A DNA stretch of 64,000 bases, taken from positions 107,157-171,156 of the forward strand of contig JACPMZ010000007.1 in assembly GCA_016185705.1 (NCBI GenBank). Reading direction: 5' to 3'. Below are positions 12,966-51,236 of the stretch, in pieces. Within the stretch, counting starts at the first letter, position 1. Each line of letters opens with the position of its first letter. The position numbers and the translations under genes were made by a program. The stretch is from Candidatus Woesearchaeota archaeon (GTDB taxonomy: Archaea; Nanobdellota; Nanobdellia; Woesearchaeales; UBA10216). The notes beneath the pieces were generated by a model, which was not told where the DNA came from, did no database searches, and saw only the letters and a list, made by a program, of their open reading frames with translations.

Positions 12966-14255
12966 ATGCCAGAATTTATGAGTGTTATCCCAGTAACCAT
13001 TAAGGAAATGCAACGAGATTCTACATGGGACTTTGCTACTGCTGATACTAAGGAATTTACTCATTGCTTCCATTCTTATCCTGCCATGATGATTCCACAA
13101 GTTGCTAGAAAAATGCTGAAAATTTATGGGAAACAGGATAGCTCACTCATTGACCCTTTTATGGGTAGCGGCTCGGTTCTTGTTGAAGGGATGCTACACG
13201 AACCTATCACTAGCGCTTATGGATTAGATATAAATCCTTTGGCTATTTTAATAGCAAAAACTAAAACTACACCAATCAAACCGCAACTTTTGGAAAACAC
13301 GTTTTCTAAAATTTTGTCTGAATTTGATAAAAAAAAGAACACTGATCTTGGTTTCTATAATCTAACTAACATTAAATACTGGTTTAAAGAGCAAGCTATT
13401 AATGACTTATCCAGACTTAAAAGTTCAATTGATGAGGTAGATAACGGCAAGATTAAAAATTTCTTTCTGGTTTGTTTTTCAGAAACAACTCGTAAAGTAT
13501 CAAATACCCGTCCAGGTGAATTCAAGCTATACCGGATTAATGAAAAGAAGTTAGCCAATTATTTGCCAAATACCCTTGAGGTATTTACCCATGTTGTTAA
13601 GCGCAATATCAAAGGTATGCACTCATTTTATAGCGCATTCAACTATTTAGACAAAAAAACTGCCATAAATATTTACAAGGAAGACAGCCGAACAAAGACG
13701 TCAATCCCTTCGGAATCTTGTGACATTTTGGTGACTTCACCACCATACGGAGATTCAAGAACCACTGTAGCTTATGGGCAGTACAGCAGATTAAGCTCGC
13801 AATTATTGGGATATTCTTATGACGAAATAAGGCGGGTGGACCAGAACGGTTTAGGAGGAAAGCGCTCATATAAAGAAAACAATCTTGATTCGCCGCACCT
13901 GCAATCTGCATTGGATAAAATATCTGCGGCTGATGAAATTCGTGCTTTAGATGTGCTTGCTTTTTATGAAGATTTCAATAAGTGCATAACCGAAATAGAT
14001 CGTATTATGAAACCTAATTCACATCTTTGTTTTGTTGTCGGCAACAGAACTGTCAAAGGAGTAAAAATCCTAACTAACGCCATAATCGCAGAATTGTTTG
14101 AGTCTAGAGAAAACTATTCTCATTTGAAAACGATAATCAGAAAAATACCAAATAAGAAAATGCCTAAAATCAATAGTCCAACTAACGTAAAAGGCGTTAC
14201 AGGGCAAACAATGGATGAAGAATACCTCCTAATTCTTAAAAAGCTTAATTGCTAA
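12966..14255 (+). CDS. DNA methyltransferase of a type II R-M system, probably N4-cytosine-specific (motif I DPFMGSGS, motif IV TSPPYGD)
   Basis: FxGxG before SPPY with about 170 aa between them (alpha-class order); strong SD TAAGGAGGT; low-GC island. Confidence 0.8.
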   Translation: MPEFMSVIPVTIKEMQRDSTWDFATADTKEFTHCFHSYPAMMIPQVARKMLKIYGKQDSSLIDPFMGSGSVLVEGMLHEPITSAYGLDINPLAILIAKTKTTPIKPQLLENTFSKILSEFDKKKNTDLGFYNLTNIKYWFKEQAINDLSRLKSSIDEVDNGKIKNFFLVCFSETTRKVSNTRPGEFKLYRINEKKLANYLPNTLEVFTHVVKRNIKGMHSFYSAFNYLDKKTAINIYKEDSRTKTSIPSESCDILVTSPPYGDSRTTVAYGQYSRLSSQLLGYSYDEIRRVDQNGLGGKRSYKENNLDSPHLQSALDKISAADEIRALDVLAFYEDFNKCITEIDRIMKPNSHLCFVVGNRTVKGVKILTNAIIAELFESRENYSHLKTIIRKIPNKKMPKINSPTNVKGVTGQTMDEEYLLILKKLNC

Positions 14256-14537
14256 GACGGGCTGTGTTGAAAACCTCGCTTCCAGTAACTTTGCCAGTCC
14301 GCTGCCTTTTCATCTTCCCCTAATTTTTAAGGGGAGATGAAAAGGCAGCGGTTGAAAATGTAAGAATCGTGGAAGCGATATGTCACATTTTCAACAGAGT
14401 CTGATAAGACGGTACTTACTCAACTGAACTTTTATCCTCAGCGCATATATCCACCCTCCCTTAACTTTCGTAGGGAGGAGGAAATAGAGCGCAGTTGTGA
14501 GCAAGCGAAGTTGAGCAATGCAGGTACTATAAGAAAA

Positions 14538-15245
14538 CTACATTATCTGTTTTCTATGGCTGAAGCATAATTCCAACTTATCTGGAAGCACTCTAAATGC
14601 GGTGCCGTGATCGTGCGTTCTTCCGTTAGAATACTGGCCAATTCTGATATCAACCATTATTGTCCCTTCTTTCAGAAGGTTTAAAAAATTTTCAAAATCA
14701 AAGCCATTCAATAGCCAAGTTTCGTTAAACCAAAACATCTCTTGTTTACCGTCCCCGTTTACATCTGCTTTTACGTACATCAGTCTTGGAAGCTTTCGCT
14801 CAAAAGATTCTCTTAAAGTATTTTTGTCCCAATAACCAAATGATTTCCCATCTGGCGTCACTAGCTCTATTTTGTTGGTACTAATTTTAATCTTAAATCC
14901 TGGTTTGCCTTTCAAATTATTGAAATCAACAGCATTTACTGTTGAATGCAACTTCTTTTTGTTATTGCCTTTTGCAGATGGATAACCAAATTGTTTCAGC
15001 AACAAAGAATTAGCCTTTGGCGGCAAGGGAGATTTTGTAAACAGAGTAAGCAAGCTCTTAGTGTGCTTCCTAGTAGACTTAAGCTCAAGCATTAGACCAT
15101 TTGGGCCAGGCACATTATTTTCCTTTATTTTCAGTTCATCCTCCAAAGTTTTTCCAATACCAGTATTTCCAGCTCTATGCGTCTTAATATATCCCAAATC
15201 TTTAAGTCGCTTCAAATCCTGCACAAGCGCAGCATAACCGATCAT
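14538..15245 (-). CDS. Type II restriction endonuclease, MvaI/BcnI-like (from-memory resemblance)
   Basis: Convergent partner of the MTase; segments GNTGIGKTLEDELKIKENNV, LLTLFTKSP, HDHGTAFRV resemble BcnI/MvaI as recalled. Confidence 0.5.
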   Translation of the reverse strand: MIGYAALVQDLKRLKDLGYIKTHRAGNTGIGKTLEDELKIKENNVPGPNGLMLELKSTRKHTKSLLTLFTKSPLPPKANSLLLKQFGYPSAKGNNKKKLHSTVNAVDFNNLKGKPGFKIKISTNKIELVTPDGKSFGYWDKNTLRESFERKLPRLMYVKADVNGDGKQEMFWFNETWLLNGFDFENFLNLLKEGTIMVDIRIGQYSNGRTHDHGTAFRVLPDKLELCFSHRKQIM

Positions 15246-39810: not shown

Positions 39811-39893
39811 GCCTCTGTAGCTCAGTGGTGGAGCGTTACCTTGGTATCCATACAAAAAGGTAGAGGTCGCGGGTCCAATTCCCGCCAGAGGCT
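39811..39893 (+). tRNA. tRNA-Thr (anticodon GGU) with putative 11-nt intron at 37/38
   Basis: Acceptor GCCTCTG/CAGAGGC, D-arm GCTC-AGTGGTG-GAGC, anticodon stem TTACC/GGTAG, T-arm GCGGG-TCCAATT-CCCGC. Confidence 0.6.
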
Positions 39894-43861: not shown

Positions 43862-44572
43862 TCACAGCATCGCCTTAACCATCCTGTTGCCCAAAGCTTT
43901 AACCGGCCTGGGCAATGAGAGCTGCCCGGCAAAGGAGTAGATTGATGTGAGCAGCAGAACATACAGATTCCTGAATTTGTCAAATATTGATAAATGGCTG
44001 GTCTTGGTAGCGTACGTTATTCCCTCCACAAAACCTATGTTCCTGAACCTGCTGCCGAAGTACAGATGCCTGTTGACGACCTTTTTCGGCCCTCCTTTCT
44101 GGCTGTCGTGGAAAGCAATAACGCCGCCATCTATCAGATGCGGCTCCCACAGCTTATAGTCAAGCAGAACCATTTCGTACTCATGAGCGCCGTCAATCCA
44201 CAAAAAGCCGATTTTTTTGTCCCAGTTCCTGGCTGCGGCTTCAGAGGTTTTCACAATCGGCTTTACCAAACCGTCAACTTTGGCAGCTTTGACATTTTGC
44301 TTAAATTCCTCAAAAGTCCACACTTTGCCAAACATCTTCTTGTGCTCGGATGAGCCGGTGTGCGGGTCAATAGCATAAACGGCAGCATGGTTTCCGTCCT
44401 TAGAACCGCTGGCAAGCCAGACAGTTGACTTGCCCTTCCAGCTGCCAATTTCAACTATTGCAGCGCTTTGCGGACATTTCCTGGCAGAATTGTAAAGAAA
44501 TCTGCCCTCAGCAGGCGAAAGCCAGCCGTCAATAGATGCAGCGGTTTTCTGCAGTTCGCCTAATCTGTCCAT
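43862..44572 (-). CDS. Class I SAM-dependent methyltransferase (O-MTase-like)
   Basis: IVEIGSWKGKST glycine-rich SAM motif; GFLWIDGAHEYE. Confidence 0.7.
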   Translation of the reverse strand: MDRLGELQKTAASIDGWLSPAEGRFLYNSARKCPQSAAIVEIGSWKGKSTVWLASGSKDGNHAAVYAIDPHTGSSEHKKMFGKVWTFEEFKQNVKAAKVDGLVKPIVKTSEAAARNWDKKIGFLWIDGAHEYEMVLLDYKLWEPHLIDGGVIAFHDSQKGGPKKVVNRHLYFGSRFRNIGFVEGITYATKTSHLSIFDKFRNLYVLLLTSIYSFAGQLSLPRPVKALGNRMVKAML

Positions 44573-44809
44573 GAAAACACACCAACGCGGCAATATATAA
44601 ATTTTTTTGGCAATTCAGCATAATAAGATCGCTTTTGTAATATCTATTCTTTACCTCGCACAATAGCGCTGCTTTTTTCCCTCCCCTTAAAATTTAGGGG
44701 AGGGAAAAAAAGCAGCGGTTATCAGCGCAAAGAGGACAGCAGCGTGAATCATTGGCAGGGGAATCAAATACCCAAAAGCTTTATATTTGCATAAAACGCT
44801 TATTAAGGC

Positions 44810-46309: not shown

Positions 46310-46327
46310 TAGTAAAACGCATTAATA

Positions 46328-46457
46328 TTGAAAAGTTCACGCAGCCTCGCTCTGTTGCTGGCTTCCCTTCCTGCTTTTTCCCTCACCTGAATATTTAAGG
46401 GAGGGAAAAAGCAGGAAGAACGGCGGGATAAACGCAGCGGTAAAGTGAACTTTTCAA
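46328..46457. mobile_element. MITE-like element family A, copy 2 (perfect 13-bp TIRs TTGAAAAGTTCAC/GTGAACTTTTCAA)
   Basis: About 93% identical to 6234-6363; between convergent genes. Confidence 0.65.
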
Positions 46458-46557
46458 TAGCACCTGCGCTTTGCCAAACAGCAATTGAACAGCCCTTTTG
46501 CAATTTGCTGTTTACGCATTCTGCGCTGTCCGATTCTGCAATACGCCATGCGGCAGT

Positions 46558-46809
46558 TCACCGAGAATCTGGAGGTTTTCCATAAATCCTTACAAGTTTG
46601 TTCCTTGAAGTGCCGCCTTTGACAATCTCAACATCCGCTTTTCTTACGCTAAAATAATCAGCCAGCAATTCAACAAGCTCCTTATTAGCCCTGCCCTTAA
46701 CAGCAGGCCTGGTTAAGCGCACTTTCAATCCGCTGCTTTCCGCAGACACGCTACTGTGTTTTGCGTTGGGAACTGCCCGTACCCTGACTTCTGTGAAATC
46801 ACCGTTCAT
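46558..46809 (-). CDS. DUF167 (YggU-like) protein
   Basis: MNGDFTEVRVRAVPNAK...LKVRLTRPAVKGRANKELVELL family signature. Confidence 0.65.
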   Translation of the reverse strand: MNGDFTEVRVRAVPNAKHSSVSAESSGLKVRLTRPAVKGRANKELVELLADYFSVRKADVEIVKGGTSRNKLVRIYGKPPDSR

Positions 46810-46883
46810 AACCAACACCAGCACTAACTACAACTATACAAATATTTGCATTTTGAGAAAGACGCCGGGACTGGACTTTTAAT

Positions 46884-47228
46884 TCAAATTGTTTTGTATT
46901 GATCCTGGCTCAAGGGAAAGTAGACTGCACTATAGATGTCAACTAATATGTTTCTGGATGGCGGAGTTACTAGGACAGCGATTTTTTCTTCGCGATACAT
47001 TTGTTCATTCAAATCGGAAAGAAAATACGCCCACGTAAGCCCAACTGCTGCAATCACATGATTCCTGATATTTTCACCATGTGCTAAAATAGCAGTCAAA
47101 TCTGAAATCTGTATGGAGCTTCGACTATCATCTCGAATAATAGTGACTCCTCGTCCCTCATCTTCTACTTTGTCGATAGGATACGATTCGCCACCCATCG
47201 AAAGCATGTACAAATTAGGATTGTTCAT
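46884..47228 (-). CDS. Hypothetical protein, possibly a truncated remnant, on low-GC island
   Basis: 114 aa ORF; small 45-aa ORF (47252-47389) directly upstream. Confidence 0.35.
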   Translation of the reverse strand: MNNPNLYMLSMGGESYPIDKVEDEGRGVTIIRDDSRSSIQISDLTAILAHGENIRNHVIAAVGLTWAYFLSDLNEQMYREEKIAVLVTPPSRNILVDIYSAVYFPLSQDQYKTI

Positions 47229-47588
47229 ATAAAATCGGTTATTGCCGGAGTTTATAAATCTTTCGAATTTTTTATCACTCTGAAGTTATTAATATTGTGG
47301 ATTCCTCGGTGAGGATTTGCACGAATGTTTTCCATTCCGCGCTCAATGGCTTTGAGCAGCTGTTGGTTGAACCACGGATATATTAGCATATTACGGCTTT
47401 TGGCAATGAGAAAAACGCCGGGACAGGACGGCGGACGAGCAGTGCGACGCCTTGCCCTTTTTGACCGCCATCAGAGACCAATGCCCTGCTTCTTTAATAT
47501 ACATTCTCGGAGAACGGATATATAAAGCTTGTCCGAAAGATTTATATAAAACTTGTTGTAATATTACTATGCGTAGTAGGTGATGTAA

Positions 47589-47864
47589 ATGGAAATGTCA
47601 ATAACAAAAATATCAAGAAATGGGCAAGTGGTTATTCCGGCAGAAGTGAGAAGCGATGCCGGTATTGGGCCAGATGCCAAATTTATTGTTTTCAACGAAG
47701 GTGGCAACATCATGCTCAAGCCGTTGCGGAAAGAAATGCTTGCAAAGGACATGAAACTCATAGAAAAAATACATCGTAGCGAGGAAGAGATTAAAGGCGG
47801 AAAATTTGTGAAGGCAGACAGCGCGATGAATGAAGAGGAGATTGACGACCTTTTGATGGCCTAA
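47589..47864 (+). CDS. AbrB/SpoVT-family antitoxin
   Basis: MEMSITKISRNGQVVIPAEVRSDAGIGPDAKFIV swapped-hairpin motif. Confidence 0.65.
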   Translation: MEMSITKISRNGQVVIPAEVRSDAGIGPDAKFIVFNEGGNIMLKPLRKEMLAKDMKLIEKIHRSEEEIKGGKFVKADSAMNEEEIDDLLMA

Positions 47865-47865
47865 C

Positions 47866-48111
47866 ATGGAGATTCTTTTTTCTGAAGAGTTTAGGAAAGA
47901 GTTTAAGAAAATAAAGGACAAGGAAACGCGATTGAGAATCATCAAGCAGGTAAAGAAACTTGCAGAAACTCCTGAAGCGGGGAAACCACTCAAGTACGGG
48001 CTTAAGCAGCACAGGAGCGTGCGCATTTCTCCATACAGGATAATTTATCGCATAGAAAGCGATAAACTTATCATCAACTGTTTTGACCACCGCAAGGATG
48101 TGTACAAATAA
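47866..48111 (+). CDS. relE: RelE/ParE-family toxin
   Basis: 81 aa; C-terminal SPYRIIYRIESDKLIINCFDHRKDVY typical of RelE/ParE. Confidence 0.7.
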   Translation: MEILFSEEFRKEFKKIKDKETRLRIIKQVKKLAETPEAGKPLKYGLKQHRSVRISPYRIIYRIESDKLIINCFDHRKDVYK

Positions 48112-48180
48112 GATAGACGTTCTAAAATGTGCCACATTTTGAGCACATAACTTTAAATAGCAATTGACTAATGATCGATT

Positions 48181-48711
48181 ATGGAAATTCGTAAGATAAC
48201 AAAAACTGATAAAAGAGGAAAACGACTCTTTGTAGAAATTGGGAAAAAAATGAAATCAGAAGCTGACCTTCCAGCCCTGAAAAAGGGAGACCAAGTTTTA
48301 GTGATGACCCAAAGAAAGCTTACTCCAACTCAAATGCAAGCACTTGTTGGTAAATATGTAAAATTTTTTGACATTTCTGATGAAGACTCATATGCTTTGA
48401 GTTTTGAAGGTATTGTTGCTATCAACAAACCTGATTTTTGGGGTAGGGATGATGATAAATCTGCCAAGTTCAAGTACGCCCTTTTAGAACAAGAATTAGG
48501 GCCAATAGATGCATTTGACGACCTAAATTATGTATTTGATTTGCAAGTAATCCCTGGCAGAGAGCGGCATGTAAACAAGGTTTCTTGTTACAAGTGTAAA
48601 AAACAATTTTTTGAAGCATATAGATATTGTCCACACTGCGGAAAACATAATCAATTATTTAGGGATGAGATAAAAAATGGCAAAATGGTTTATAAACAAA
48701 AAGGGTTATAG
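48181..48711 (+). CDS. Hypothetical protein with C-terminal zinc ribbon
   Basis: CYKCKK...YCPHCG; low-GC island. Confidence 0.45.
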   Translation: MEIRKITKTDKRGKRLFVEIGKKMKSEADLPALKKGDQVLVMTQRKLTPTQMQALVGKYVKFFDISDEDSYALSFEGIVAINKPDFWGRDDDKSAKFKYALLEQELGPIDAFDDLNYVFDLQVIPGRERHVNKVSCYKCKKQFFEAYRYCPHCGKHNQLFRDEIKNGKMVYKQKGL

Positions 48712-48913
48712 GCGTTTTAGCGATTCGGGGAACAGTGTACATCGCTGGGTTGCCGGTAAAAAGCTAGGAAGACCACTTCGAACGGAGGAACGTGTGCATC
48801 ATATAAACAGAGATAAACTAGACAATAGACCAAGTAATCTGTGGGTATTCAAAAACCAAACGGAACACACCAAAGCTCACAGAAGGGATAAGAAACGATA
48901 CGGATTTTGGTAA
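48677..48913 (+). CDS. HNH endonuclease
   Basis: VHHINRDKLDNRPSNLWVF...HTKAH core HNH motif; overlaps previous gene in another frame. Confidence 0.7.
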   Translation: MAKWFINKKGYRRFSDSGNSVHRWVAGKKLGRPLRTEERVHHINRDKLDNRPSNLWVFKNQTEHTKAHRRDKKRYGFW

Positions 48914-48935
48914 TTAAAAAAAGGAGGTGACGCAA

Positions 48936-49050
48936 ATGGGAAAAACGTATTATTGCATACAGTGTAATAGAGAAATAAAACAGAAAGGCAGATGCCTTCC
49001 TTGTAATATGGAAGCAAAAAGGAGAAGAGAAGCACAAGAAAGAAAATATT
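48936..49050 (+). CDS. Mini zinc-ribbon protein (38 aa)
   Basis: AGGAGGTGA SD; MGKTYYCIQCNREIKQKGRCLPCNMEAKRRREAQERKY. Confidence 0.3.
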
Positions 49051-49124
49051 AAATCTCCTTTAACTGATTTTTTTACTATTTATTGGAACCACGTTCTTTT
49101 TCATTTTTTGTTCCTCCAGAAGAA

Positions 49125-49410
49125 GCAGGCCCTTGTATTTAAGCCGGGTTGCCTTTATGTGGCCACAAAGCACGGGCTTGACTTTCAAAGACCACGCCCA
49201 AACACGGACGTGACTTTGAAAGGTTACGCCGGGACTGGGACATACTCACTGCGGTTCGTAGCCCCAGTCCCGGCTCTGTTCGCTTCGCTCACTACGCCGG
49301 GACTGGGACTTTCATTGACTCTGATGTTGTTCAGCCAGTCTTTTTTGAACCCAGACACCCTTAACGGGAACAGCCTCACTTGATTGTTCCAGGGCTGCGC
49401 GATGCCAGAT
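49125..49410 (-). ncRNA. Candidate structured ncRNA; carries RNase P RNA-like motifs GAAAGUCC (5' region) and AACCCGGCUUA (3' region)
   Basis: GC-rich, ORF-poor, 12-bp hairpins, 17-nt direct repeat; motif order and strand fit RNase P RNA P4 strands but the fold is not confirmed. Confidence 0.25.
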
Positions 49411-49760
49411 TACGCGATCCCGGCACAGGCATAAGCTGTTTGGCAGTTTATTTAAATGTGATGATTTGGGCGGGGTTGTTGCGAAAACAGCTTTTCATGC
49501 CCGCTGCTGTTCACTTTATCCAAACTTCTTTTATTTCTCACAGCGATAATTAGGGGGAGAAGAAAAGAAGCTGAACTAAGCTTTGGCACAATTGACCTAT
49601 AGGAAATAACCTTAATTTTCGTATGTTTTGAAATGATTGCAAGGTTATTTCCTAATAAGCAAATCACCTATTCGTTAGGAACAAAATTCCGATTATTAAA
49701 GTGATTTGCTATAATTACGCAACAACCCCTATTCGTATAATGAAAAAATGTTCCAATAAA

Positions 49761-50066
49761 TTATATTTCAACAAAAACCCCGTCATTTTCTACAATTACC
49801 TTGTACGCAGGCACCTTGGCGCCGGGCTGGGTCTGGGATTCGCCAGTTTCCAGGTCATATTCCCATGCGTGCAATGGGCAGGTAACTGTTTCCCCGGCTA
49901 CAAATCCTTCGCCTAAAGAACCGCCCTGATGGGCGCAGATGTTTGAGATGGCAAAAAACTTTCCTTTAATGTTGAACACCGCTATTTCTTTGCCGGCAGC
50001 TTCCACTATCTTTGAGCTGCCTTCTGGAATTTCGTTCACGTTTGCTACTTTGATTTTTTGCGGCAT
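49761..50066 (-). CDS. Rieske [2Fe-2S] domain protein (NirD-like small subunit)
   Basis: CAHQGGSL ... CPLHAWEYDL (CxH...CxxH). Confidence 0.8.
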   Translation of the reverse strand: MPQKIKVANVNEIPEGSSKIVEAAGKEIAVFNIKGKFFAISNICAHQGGSLGEGFVAGETVTCPLHAWEYDLETGESQTQPGAKVPAYKVIVENDGVFVEI

Positions 50067-50267
50067 TTTAAATTCGTCTGAAATACCTCTAATTTTCCCA
50101 CCATGCTCCTCTGCTTCTTAACCACCATCCGATGATTTTTTCCCTACCCTGAAATGTCAGGAGAGGGAAAAAAGCAGCGGGAATAAAAAAGTCCCTTGGA
50201 GCGCTTTGTGCTTAGCGAACAAACAGAAACGGAAAGTCTTATAAATATTTTGCCACGCACTATTGCT

Positions 50268-51236
50268 ATGATATGCCTTGGAATTGAGTCAACTGCACAT
50301 ACTTTCGGAGTTGGGATAGCCAATAGCAGCGGCAAAGTGCTGGCTAATGTCCTTAAGCCGGTCGTTACAAAAAAGGGCGGAATAATTCCTGCAGAAGCAT
50401 CTGACCACCACGTTAAAGTTTGTGATGAAGCTATAAAAGAGGCGCTGGCAGCTGCTAAATTTAAGCTTTCTGATGTTGGCTTAATAGCTTTCGCGCAGGG
50501 ACCGGGAATAGGGCATTGCTTAAGAGTTGGGGCAATGGCAGCAAGGAGTTTGTCATTGCTGCATAAACTGCCTTTAGTGGGAGTTAATCACTGCATAGCC
50601 CATCTTGAAATCGGCAAGCTGCTGACTGCAGCGAAGGAGCCTGTGCTTCTTTACGTTTCCGGAGCAAACACGCAGGTGATAGCGTTTGAAAGCGGAAAAT
50701 ACAGGGTGTTTGGAGAAACACTGGACATCGGAGTGGGAAACATGCTTGACGTATTCGGCAGGGAAATCGGCTTCGGCTTTCCTGCCGGGCCTAAGATAAT
50801 GGAAACTGCAGCCAAAGGAAAAAAATACGTTGAGATTCCGTACGTCATCAAAGGAATGGATGTCAGCTTTGGCGGAATCCTGACAAACGTTTCAGAGAAA
50901 GCAAGAAGCGGCAAATACAGCAAGGCAGATTTGTGCTACAGCCTGCAGGAAACAGTTTTTGCAATGCTTGTGGAAGCAGCTGAGCGCGCAATGGCCCACA
51001 CTGGCAAAAAAGAGCTGCTATTGGGAGGCGGTGTTGCTTCTAACATAAGGCTGCAGGAAATGTGCAGAATCATGTGCAGGGAAAGAAATGCGAAGATGTT
51101 TGTTCCTGAAAGGCAGTTCCTTGTGGATAATGGCGCAATGATAGCATGGCTTGGAATACTGGAACACAAAAAAGGCAAACAGACGAAAATCAAAGACTCG
51201 GGAATAAAGCCGTACTGGCGGACGGATGAGGCCTAA
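50268..51236 (+). CDS. kae1: tRNA N6-adenosine threonylcarbamoyltransferase Kae1
   Basis: MICLGIESTAHTFGVGIA N-terminus, His-pair metal site, ASKH-fold length; ORF could start as early as 50196. Confidence 0.9.
   Translation: MICLGIESTAHTFGVGIANSSGKVLANVLKPVVTKKGGIIPAEASDHHVKVCDEAIKEALAAAKFKLSDVGLIAFAQGPGIGHCLRVGAMAARSLSLLHKLPLVGVNHCIAHLEIGKLLTAAKEPVLLYVSGANTQVIAFESGKYRVFGETLDIGVGNMLDVFGREIGFGFPAGPKIMETAAKGKKYVEIPYVIKGMDVSFGGILTNVSEKARSGKYSKADLCYSLQETVFAMLVEAAERAMAHTGKKELLLGGGVASNIRLQEMCRIMCRERNAKMFVPERQFLVDNGAMIAWLGILEHKKGKQTKIKDSGIKPYWRTDEA

What the first reader, a model, noticed from the sequence alone, without database searches (positions are those of the whole stretch)
46860..49060. 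Low-GC island with HNH endonuclease, RelE/AbrB toxin-antitoxin pair, zinc-ribbon mini-proteins and a probable gene remnant
The AT-rich stretch between the GT39-like gene/MITE copy and the GC-rich ncRNA-like region encodes several items. These are a possibly truncated 114-aa ORF preceded by a 45-aa ORF, an AbrB antitoxin plus RelE/ParE toxin, a 176-aa protein with C-terminal zinc ribbon, an HNH nuclease overlapping it out of frame, and a 38-aa zinc-ribbon peptide. Several have strong SD sites (AGGAGGTGA), which are rare on native genes here. Composition and content suggest a decayed integrated element or defense islet.
Basis: partly seen in the sequence, partly recalled or inferred. Interest (0 to 1): 0.5.

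Follow-up and report, generated by a model that had tools for sequence, protein, structure and literature searches.

The report
tRNA-linked islet of selfish gene modules
A 2.4-kb AT-rich patch in a Woesearchaeota (DPANN archaeon) genome is a pile-up of small selfish gene modules next to a hidden, twice-interrupted serine tRNA gene; it is bounded and subdivided by four copies of that tRNA's tail, the usual scar of mobile DNA insertion, so it is an ordinary kind of thing in a little-studied lineage.

Summary
The ORFs, domains and low GC are real: AbrB/MazE plus RelE/ParE, a 176-aa zinc-ribbon protein overlapped by a 78-aa HNH_3 nuclease, and a 38-aa zinc-ribbon peptide. GC is 0.389 against 0.458 for the window.

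The new result is that the neighbouring "GC-rich ncRNA-like region" holds an undetected tRNA-Ser(GGA) gene on the minus strand (49424->49295). It has two introns, one in the T-loop. The islet starts at its 3' end. The last 15-23 nt of the tRNA recur as direct repeats at 49225-49241, 47413-47429 and 46862-46884, with one inverted copy at 49244-49275. These are att-like scars of at least two insertions. No integrase is present.

The content is a mosaic of independently mobile units:
- A RelE/AbrB pair that is widespread in DPANN archaea.
- A ~790-bp cassette (176-aa protein plus small HNH) with its own conserved operator and promoter. Relatives of it sit in nine distinct, unrelated contexts elsewhere, seven of them with an HNH_3 partner.
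- Two orphan ORFs.

In the relative L119, the tRNA is followed within 96 nt by a gene that lies 4.7 kb away here. Not supported: "several strong SD sites" (one strong, one moderate), the "gene remnant" call, and a recognised defence system. Verdict: a tRNA-associated integration remnant, of modest interest.

The parts
49295..49424 (-). tRNA-Ser(GGA) gene, type II (long variable arm). It has a ~10-nt intron at 37/38 (49377-49386) and a 35-nt intron in the T-loop at 59/60 (49309-49343). It is the presumed integration target.
   Evidence: ARAGORN and Rfam miss it. After in-silico removal of both inserts, ARAGORN calls tRNA-Ser(gga). Homologues align in exons and vary in insert length. L005 lacks the T-loop insert and is called tRNA-Ser directly. 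The unspliced fold keeps the acceptor and T stems.
49294..49316 (-). O1: the genuine 3' end of the tRNA (end of T-loop intron, T-stem 3' strand, acceptor 3' strand, discriminator, +1). It is the reference copy of the att-like repeat.
49244..49275 (+). O': an inverted copy of the repeat core (GCCCCAGTCCCGGCT). It forms a 12-bp hairpin with O2.
   Evidence: (I22)
49225..49241 (-). O2: an exact 17-nt second copy of the tRNA 3' end (TACGCCGGGACTGGGAC on the + strand).
49053..49224 (.). GC-rich segment with two stable hairpins. No homologue or Rfam family was found. It lies inside the repeat-bounded islet.
48936..49052 (+). zn38: a 38-aa CxxC...CxxC peptide with a strong SD site (AGGAGGTGA, 48922-48930). 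GC3 is 0.23.
48677..48913 (+). A 78-aa HNH_3 nuclease with no DNA-binding domain. It is the second gene of the cassette and overlaps orf176 by 35 nt.
48181..48711 (+). orf176: a member of a family of 21 clusters (at 90% identity) with no annotation. The model shows an SH3/Sm-like beta-barrel plus a C-terminal zinc ribbon. It is the first gene of the cassette.
48124..48180 (+). Cassette promoter region: conserved ATGTGCCACAT (48127-48137), GAGCACA (48141-48147) and a TATA box TTTAAATA (48152-48159). There is no SD site.
47535..48111 (+). Type II toxin-antitoxin module: AbrB/MazE antitoxin (47589-47864) and RelE/ParE toxin (47866-48111), with about 54 nt of upstream region that travels with it.
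47407..47429 (-). O3: a third copy of the tRNA 3' end (core 47413-47429, 1 indel). It shares an 8-nt T-rich flank (TGAGAAA on the + strand) with O4.
   Evidence: (D8, 21/23 identical)
47252..47389 (-). orf45, with no homologue or domain. Its status as a gene is uncertain.
46884..47228 (-). orf114, an orphan. It shows only a weak motif resemblance to Calx-beta repeat junctions.
46854..46884 (-). O4: the distal copy of the tRNA 3' end, including the last 8 nt of the T-loop intron (46862-46884), plus the 8-nt shared flank. It is the outer boundary of the islet and is followed by the DUF167 gene.
   Evidence: (D8, D11)

Best explanation
The islet (46854-49316) is a remnant of at least two successive site-specific insertions into the 3' end of a two-intron tRNA-Ser(GGA) gene of a Woesearchaeota archaeon. 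Each insertion duplicated the tRNA's terminal 15-31 nt. The tRNA therefore stayed intact while older copies (O2, O3, O4) were pushed outward.

The flank pattern suggests an order. The orf45/orf114 segment came first, with a core of about 31 nt that reached 8 nt past the tRNA. The 1.8-kb segment carrying the TA pair, the orf176-HNH cassette and zn38 then inserted at the tRNA-proximal copy. A last small event left the O2/O' palindrome. The recombinase has been lost or acts in trans.

What remains is a mosaic of self-contained selfish modules:
- An autoregulated AbrB-RelE addiction module, which would penalise loss of the region.
- A ~790-bp cassette encoding a zinc-ribbon/beta-barrel protein and a minimal HNH_3 nuclease, with its own operator and promoter. 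It behaves like a free-standing homing-endonuclease or addiction cassette.

Shown: the tRNA identity, the repeats, the composition, the independence of the modules, and absence from the relative L119. Inferred: integrase-mediated mechanism, order of events, and the biochemical roles of the proteins.
For: - tRNA identity. Spliced in silico, ARAGORN calls tRNA-Ser(gga). Forty-six metagenome loci and five genome loci carry the same gene, with conserved exons and a T-loop insert of 12-79 nt.
- Repeats. A 14-mer core occurs four times in direct orientation, all within this 2.5 kb, against 0.30 expected and 0/100 shuffles reaching four. O3 and O4 match at 21/23. O4 matches the tRNA end over 23 nt including intron sequence.
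- Uniqueness. Forty-five of the 46 metagenome loci, and all four of the five genome loci in which the core is found (L005 has no match), have a single copy of the core.
- Flanks. O3 and O4 carry T-rich flanks like the native trailers of relatives, whereas O1 does not.
- Comparison with L119 (Kae1 83% identical). The orthologue of window gene 43862-44572 starts 96 nt after the tRNA in L119, against 4.7 kb here. Sequence 3' of the tRNA differs in L119, L090 and the window.
- Parallels. In L146 one AAA_14/DUF4143 gene is flanked by a 13/15 repeat. In L090 a MazF TA pair plus one ORF is flanked by a 12/15+TTTA repeat. In L154 a MazE/RelE pair lies directly 3' of the tRNA.
- Composition.
- Module independence. 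TA homology with L213 ends at 47535-48105, in another context. Cassette homology is confined to 48124-48914, in unrelated contexts.
- Assembly. Independent Logan contigs reproduce 46438-47442 and 47504-49255 at 100% identity.
- Literature. Integration normally leaves one complete and one partial tRNA copy at opposite ends of an element (PMC9897764). Disrupted, hard-to-predict tRNA genes are expected in DPANN (PMC5829648).
Against: - No integrase or any recombinase domain lies in the islet. A crude tyrosine-recombinase motif scan of the whole window found none.
- The repeats are short and imperfect: 15-23 nt, with indels in O3 and O4.
- No intact related element with an integrase was found, and there are no matches in IMG/VR, phage or plasmid collections.
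- The nearest relatives are distant (Kae1 at most 84% identical), so absence from L119 could reflect ordinary rearrangement.
- The extra 4.7 kb also contains two genes of native composition (PMT_2 and DUF167) that lie outside the repeats.
- In most other genomes the tRNA is followed by housekeeping genes, so it is not a general hot spot.
- TA-pair composition is native-like.
- The junctions 47443-47503 and 49256-49294 are supported only by the window's own assembly.
Confidence: 0.6

Rival explanations
1. Piecemeal accretion without a tRNA-targeting integrase. The intergenic space 3' of the tRNA is simply permissive. The TA pair and the orf176-HNH cassette arrived separately by homing or illegitimate recombination, and the tRNA-end copies arose by local duplication or slippage.
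For: The modules have sharp, independent homology boundaries and occur alone elsewhere. No integrase is present. The TA pair has native-like GC3 while the cassette does not, which suggests different arrival times. There is an inverted copy as well as direct ones.
Against: Local duplication does not explain why the copies sit exactly at segment boundaries. It also does not explain the O4 flank pattern: O4 shares tRNA-side sequence with O1 and distal flank with O3. The same repeat-bounded layout recurs at this tRNA in L146 and L090.
Confidence: 0.2
2. A host-beneficial defence islet. RelE/AbrB acts as an abortive-infection module, and orf176-HNH is a two-component anti-virus nuclease kept by selection.
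For: The genes look intact. Several orf176 cassettes sit among R-M, PD-(D/E)XK or DUF1016 genes (L084, L210, L211, L083). The nuclease partner is conserved in 7 of 9 distinct loci.
Against: PADLOC gives only sub-threshold hits: CARF_RelE at 0.0057 and ZorE at 0.0038. Other cassettes lie between housekeeping genes (L085, L086). There is no sensor or ATPase component. This reading is compatible with the best explanation rather than exclusive of it.
Confidence: 0.12
3. A native, vertically inherited region. Low GC reflects short genes and spacers, and the repeats are chance or regulatory motifs.
For: The TA pair has native-like composition. RelE homologues are ubiquitous in Woesearchaeota.
Against: Four copies in 2.5 kb against 0.3 expected. 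orf176 and zn38 GC3 lie more than 3 SD below the mean. The region is absent 3' of the tRNA in L119, in L090 and in about 45 other loci.
Confidence: 0.05
4. Assembly chimera. Metagenome contigs were mis-joined at the short repeats.
For: Independent Logan contigs end at 47442 and 49255, within about 14 nt of O3 and O2.
Against: The repeats (15-23 nt, imperfect) are shorter than usual assembly k-mers. The Logan contig 46438-47442, recorded in six samples, and contigs from two further runs covering 47504-49255 reproduce most junctions at 100% identity. The NCBI contig is 250 kb.
Confidence: 0.03

Closest known systems
tRNA-associated genomic islands and integrated elements of archaea and bacteria (for example PYG1 in Pyrococcus yayanosii; pNOB8/SSV-type integrations in Sulfolobales)
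   Same: The islet abuts the 3' end of a tRNA gene, is bounded by direct repeats made of the tRNA 3' part, has atypical composition, carries selfish cargo, and shows piling-up of copies at one tRNA (PMC9897764).
   Different: It is only 2.4 kb and has no integrase. The repeats are short (15-31 nt) and degenerate. The target is an intron-split tRNA and the repeat includes intron sequence. No intact parent element is known.
Type II RelBE/ParDE toxin-antitoxin modules with an AbrB/MazE-fold antitoxin
   Same: Gene order is antitoxin then toxin, with 1 nt between stop and start. Both domains score above the Pfam gathering thresholds. The module has its own upstream region and is found in other contexts.
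   Different: Nothing unusual. It is notably conserved across DPANN: 73-88% identity among the 120 best-scoring of 266 matching clusters.
Free-standing HNH_3 homing endonuclease genes of phages (I-HmuI-like; PHROG HNH families)
   Same: It has an HNH_3 catalytic core. The compact cassette carries its own promoter and is inserted between unrelated genes in different genomes.
   Different: The nuclease is only 78 aa and has no AP2, NUMOD or HTH DNA-binding module. It is always preceded by a 165-180-aa zinc-ribbon/beta-barrel protein of unknown function. No target site or empty site has been shown. It was found in cellular DPANN contigs, not viral ones.
Archaeal tRNA genes with non-canonical introns (Thermoproteales, DPANN)
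   Same: A cloverleaf is recovered after removing an insert at 37/38 and one at 59/60. By hand inspection there is a helix-bulge arrangement: UUCA/UGAA 4-bp helix flanked by 3-nt bulges. Insert length varies among homologues.
   Different: Nothing in kind. This particular gene is not detected by ARAGORN or Rfam.

Membership tests
tRNA-targeting integrated element / genomic island | Lies directly next to a tRNA gene, usually at its 3' end | tested here: met
   The islet begins at base 49294, one base after the discriminator of tRNA-Ser(GGA).
tRNA-targeting integrated element / genomic island | Bounded by direct repeats that reproduce part of the tRNA | tested here: met
   O1 and O4 match over 23 nt with 1 mismatch and 1 indel. 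O2 and O3 are internal copies. 0/100 shuffles give four matches.
tRNA-targeting integrated element / genomic island | Encodes a site-specific recombinase (integrase) near one end | tested here: not met
   No recombinase domain in any ORF of at least 38 aa. orf114 has no homologues. A motif scan of the window was negative, although that test is crude.
tRNA-targeting integrated element / genomic island | Atypical base composition or codon usage | tested here: met
   GC 0.389 against 0.458. GC3 is 0.23-0.38 for four genes against 0.51 +/- 0.08. The TA pair is an exception.
tRNA-targeting integrated element / genomic island | Absent from the same site in related genomes (empty site) | tested here: inconclusive
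   L119 has the MTase orthologue 96 nt after the tRNA, and L090 and about 45 other loci lack the islet. However, the nearest relatives are only 83-84% identical in Kae1, and DUF167 has no close relative.
Type II toxin-antitoxin (RelE/ParE with AbrB/MazE antitoxin) | Adjacent small antitoxin and toxin genes with family domains above the curated thresholds | tested here: met
   MazE_antitoxin 37.7 bits (cut-off 24.7). ParE_toxin 46.9 bits (cut-off 23). TIGR01439 AbrB 39.9 bits (cut-off 28.3). RelE_StbE 28.4 bits (cut-off 27.9).
Type II toxin-antitoxin (RelE/ParE with AbrB/MazE antitoxin) | Toxin activity neutralised by the antitoxin | not testable with these tools
   Needs expression experiments.
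HNH_3 homing endonuclease | HNH_3 catalytic domain with its conserved His/Asn residues | tested here: met
   HNH_3 36.7 bits (cut-off 24.8). The motif VHHINRDKLDNRPSNL...H is present. There are 15 PHROG HNH hits.
HNH_3 homing endonuclease | Attached DNA-recognition module (AP2, NUMOD, IENR or HTH) | tested here: not met
   The 78-aa protein is the HNH_3 domain alone.
HNH_3 homing endonuclease | Presence/absence polymorphism at a defined target site between otherwise homologous genomes | not tested
   The cassette occurs in unrelated contexts.
Intron-containing archaeal tRNA | Canonical cloverleaf and anticodon after intron removal | tested here: met
   ARAGORN calls tRNA-Ser(gga), 85 nt with a long variable arm. 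The L005 homologue is called tRNA-Ser directly.
Intron-containing archaeal tRNA | Bulge-helix-bulge (or relaxed) motif at the exon-intron junctions | tested here: inconclusive
   By hand inspection only. The T-loop intron has a 4-bp UUCA/UGAA helix between two 3-nt bulges. The 10-nt intron fits only a bulge-helix-loop with one mismatch. No dedicated tool was run.
Known anti-phage defence systems (PADLOC) | Match to a defence-system protein model | tested here: not met
   Only CARF_RelE at E 0.0057 and ZorE at E 0.0038, each covering a fragment of the model.

The most novel reading that the evidence does not exclude
The orf176-nuclease pair may be a previously undescribed, autoregulated two-gene selfish or defence system of DPANN archaea. 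A zinc-ribbon/beta-barrel protein would bind the conserved TGTGnCACA operator and target or neutralise a minimal nuclease. That nuclease is HNH_3 in 7 of 9 distinct loci and other small proteins in the rest.

In addition, the integrase-less mini-islands bounded by tRNA-Ser 3'-end repeats (window, L146, L090) may be cassettes mobilised in trans at a tRNA end, rather than mere wreckage.
Probability: 0.2. Interest if true: 0.6.

Novelty: new member of a known kind. Interest (0 to 1): 0.38.

Why it matters
Mobile elements and integration sites are almost undescribed in DPANN archaea.
- This locus gives a concrete example of a tRNA-end integration scar in a Woesearchaeon.
- It shows that the target tRNA is invisible to standard tRNA finders because of a T-loop intron. 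Such islands, and the tRNA complement itself, will therefore be under-annotated in these genomes.
- It isolates a compact, recurrent two-gene nuclease cassette of unknown function that could be tested experimentally.
- It does not change any general principle.

Tried and rejected
- The GC-rich neighbour as a known ncRNA: Rfam finds nothing at gathering or at E<=10. A resemblance of GAAAGTCCC to RNase P CR-I, and an SRP RNA reading, were both dropped once the homologue alignment showed a tRNA.
- orf176 and HNH as one frameshifted gene: rejected. Both are separate, conserved ORFs in four other loci, with no overlap in L085.
- orf114 or orf45 as a split (SSV-type) integrase: no homologues and no domains.
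- orf114 as a Calx-beta gene fragment: only summed 7-8-bit repeat hits, so not demonstrable.
- Empty-site test through DUF167: the best non-self hit is 49% identical.
- Synteny in 80 Kae1 loci from GTDB genomes: none carries DUF167 or the islet, and only L009 has a Rieske homologue beside Kae1.
- Viral or plasmid origin: no hits in IMG/VR, phage DNA, plasmid DNA or BFVD folds.
- The 114-aa partner in L207 as a DUF559 nuclease: this was a by-eye impression with no Pfam support.
- tRNA-Ser as a general integration hot spot: downstream genes in about 45 loci are mostly housekeeping.
- Homologues of 49053-49294 and 47390-47588: none found.
Full report
**Organism and setting.** Kae1 (50196-51236) is at most 74% identical to Woesearchaeota MAGs in GTDB genomes. 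orf176 is recorded at NCBI as HYX10_03640 of a Candidatus Woesearchaeota archaeon, on a 250-kb contig. Independent Logan contigs from runs SRR12113430/31/33 reproduce 46438-47442 and 47504-49255 at 100% identity.

**Check of the observation.**
- Pfam, PHROGs and NCBIfam confirm an AbrB/MazE antitoxin (47589-47864), a RelE/ParE toxin (47866-48111) and a 78-aa HNH_3 nuclease (48677-48913). The nuclease overlaps the 176-aa ORF (48181-48711) by 35 nt in another frame.
- The zinc-ribbon calls for orf176 and the 38-aa peptide rest on CxxC pairs seen in the sequence and on sub-threshold Pfam hits.
- The region has GC 0.389 against 0.458 for the window. Only 2.3% of equal-sized windows are as low.
- The anomaly is uneven. 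GC3 is 0.27 for orf176, 0.23 for zn38, 0.37 for orf114 and 0.38 for HNH, against 0.51 +/- 0.08 for 54 crude genes. The TA genes are native-like at 0.47 and 0.51.
- Two sub-claims do not hold. Only zn38 has AGGAGGTGA and only MazE has a moderate site, so "several strong SD sites" is overstated.
- orf114 cannot be shown to be a gene remnant. Among 1.8 billion representatives it matches only itself plus giant Calx-beta/Ig repeat proteins, and those matches are many individually insignificant 7-8-bit hits.

**The hidden tRNA.** The motif CGCCGGGACWGGAC occurs four times in the window, all between 46863 and 49308 and all in the same orientation. The expectation is 0.30, and 0 of 100 shuffles reach four.
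- The same sequence starts a conserved ~130-200-nt element next to Kae1 in other Woesearchaeota.
- Aligned on the minus strand, this element is a serine tRNA. It has a GCCGGGA/TCCCGGC acceptor stem, a D-arm, an anticodon loop CTGGAA, a long variable arm and a CTGGG/CCCAG T-stem.
- The T-loop is interrupted after TTCAAA by an insert of 12-79 nt in different genomes.
- L005 lacks that insert, and ARAGORN calls it tRNA-Ser with one canonical intron.
- Removing a 10-nt insert (49377-49386) and a 35-nt T-loop insert (49309-49343) from the window sequence gives an 85-nt sequence that ARAGORN calls tRNA-Ser(gga).
- The unspliced RNA still folds with the acceptor and T stems closed.
- By hand, the T-loop junctions fit a 4-bp helix (UUCA/UGAA) between two 3-nt bulges, with symmetric cuts.
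- ARAGORN and Rfam both miss the gene. This agrees with the literature remark that DPANN genomes hide disrupted tRNA genes (PMC5829648).

**The repeats as att-like scars.** On the tRNA strand the four copies read as follows:

| Copy | Sequence (tRNA end, then flank) | Coordinates |
|---|---|---|
| O1 | AATGAAAGTCCCAGTCCCGGCGT / AGTGAGCG | the real 3' end, 49316->49294 |
| O2 | GTCCCAGTCCCGGCGTA / ACCTTTC | 49241->49225 |
| O3 | GTCC-TGTCCCGGCGT / TTTTCTCA | 47429->47407 |
| O4 | AATTAAAAGTCC-AGTCCCGGCGT / CTTTCTCA | 46884->46854 |

- There is also one inverted copy at 49244-49275, which forms a 12-bp hairpin with O2.
- O4 shares tRNA-side sequence with O1, including the last bases of the intron. 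It shares its T-rich distal flank with O3.
- T-rich trailers follow the tRNA in relatives (TTTAAC, TTTACAC, CATTTTTTC), but not at O1.
- The simplest reading is nested integration. The orf45/orf114 segment entered first, with a core of about 31 nt. The 1.8-kb segment then entered at the tRNA-proximal copy. A last small event left O2/O'. This order is inference.
- One complete and one partial tRNA copy at opposite ends is the standard footprint of integrated elements (PMC9897764).

**Comparison with relatives.**
- A metagenome scan for the tRNA end returned 120 loci, 46 with the same gene. Forty-five of these have a single copy of the core. So do all four of the five genome loci in which the core is found (L005 has no match).
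- Their downstream genes are mostly housekeeping: PfkB, beta-CASP, IMPDH, Kae1.
- The two closest relatives, L119 and L090 (Kae1 83-84% identical), share the divergent tRNA/Kae1 layout. L090 is syntenic with the window to the right of Kae1.
- In L119 the orthologue of window gene 43862-44572 (Methyltransf_24, 67% identical) begins 96 nt after the tRNA. In the window it lies 4.7 kb away.
- That extra 4.7 kb contains the islet plus two genes of native composition (PMT_2 and DUF167) outside the repeats. No further repeat copy lies beyond O4.
- With relatives this distant, the empty-site test is suggestive rather than decisive. DUF167 has no close relative at all.
- Three other loci show the same theme on a small scale:
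  - L146 has one AAA_14/DUF4143 gene between two tRNA-end copies.
  - L090 has a MazF TA pair plus one ORF, followed by a degenerate copy (12/15 plus an identical TTTA flank).
  - L154 has a MazE/RelE pair directly 3' of the tRNA.

**Content: a mosaic.**
- The RelE toxin is 73-88% identical to the 120 best-scoring of 266 matching clusters, many from sources named Woesearchaeota or Nanoarchaeota. That is more conserved than Kae1.
- In L213 the same pair sits in another context, and DNA homology is confined to window 47535-48105.
- orf176 belongs to a family of only 21 clusters (at 90% identity), with no annotation, no PDB sequence match and no IMG/VR relatives.
- In nine distinct loci elsewhere, its gene is followed by a small partner gene in every case but one (L083). 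The partner is HNH_3 in seven of the nine. One of those (L209) is fused to a 571-aa protein, and one (L083) is separated by 2.9 kb of helicase/nuclease fragments. The partner is an unassigned 114-aa protein in L207/L208 and a 120-aa membrane protein in L210.
- DNA homology with the window is confined to 48124-48914.
- All loci share an upstream ATGTGnCACAT...GnGCACA motif next to a TATA box, with no SD site.
- The neighbourhoods are unrelated to one another. They include RNA polymerase genes, Trm1/EPSP synthase, and R-M and nuclease-rich islands.
- The cassette therefore moves on its own. It resembles a free-standing homing-endonuclease gene or an addiction module. Its nuclease lacks any DNA-binding domain, and no target site has been shown.
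- PADLOC recognises no defence system.

**What is missing.** No integrase or other recombinase lies in the islet, and a crude motif scan of the window found none. No related intact element was found, and there is no similarity to phage or plasmid records. The GC-rich hairpins at 49053-49224 remain unexplained.

**Verdict.** The "defence islet" reading has no support. The thing is a tRNA-associated integration remnant made of selfish modules. That is a known kind of feature, here in a poorly studied lineage and with a target tRNA that standard tools miss. The orf176-nuclease cassette is the only component that might be new in kind.

Noticed in passing
window 12966-15245: The only other low-GC patch in the window (GC3 0.33-0.37) is a type II restriction-modification pair: a DNA methylase (12966-14255, +) and an MvaI/BcnI-family endonuclease (14538-15245, -).
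   Followed up: partly
window 49295-49424 (-), and 46 metagenome loci (e.g. L119, L090, L106): tRNA-Ser(GGA) has a second intron in the T-loop (59/60), with an insert length of 12-79 nt across Woesearchaeota. ARAGORN and Rfam do not detect it, so tRNA sets of these genomes are probably under-called.
   Followed up: yes
window 39811-39893 (+): Rfam finds a tRNA here (56 bits) that ARAGORN misses. It is presumably another intron-containing tRNA.
   Followed up: no
window 44667-44717, 46326-46459, 50129-50180: A family of palindromic elements (TTTTTCCCTCCCC...GGGGAGGGAAAAA) lies between genes. The copy at 46326-46459 has perfect 15-nt terminal inverted repeats. They are MITE-like or bidirectional-terminator-like.
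   Followed up: no
window 49425-50195: A Rieske-protein gene (49761-50066, -) and an AT-rich spacer with a 14-nt perfect inverted repeat (49600-49654) lie between the tRNA 5' end and Kae1. In L119 and L090 that gap is only about 80-90 nt, so this side of the tRNA also gained DNA.
   Followed up: partly
L146 1762-3150; L090 113-1750: Other Woesearchaeota contigs carry 1.4-1.6-kb gene sets bounded by a second, degenerate copy of the tRNA-Ser 3' end, without an integrase. L146 has an AAA_14/DUF4143 ATPase. L090 has a MazF/VapB-like TA pair plus a 294-aa ORF.
   Followed up: partly
L083 6001-9740: In a 1.1-Mb contig, the orf176 and HNH homologues are separated by 2.9 kb holding fragmented UvrD-helicase and PD-(D/E)XK genes. 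A DUF2779/RNase_H_2 gene lies next to the cassette both here and in L211.
   Followed up: no
window 47866-48111 and P0031-P0149: The RelE toxin is 73-88% identical to the 120 best-scoring DPANN protein clusters. That is higher than the best identity of the universal Kae1 protein (84%), which suggests recent horizontal spread or strong constraint.
   Followed up: partly
window 47442/47504 and 49255 (ends of L214 and L001): Independent Logan contigs of the same organism end within about 14 nt of repeat copies O3 and O2. This could reflect assembly-graph branching at the repeats, or strain variants differing at these sites.
   Followed up: no
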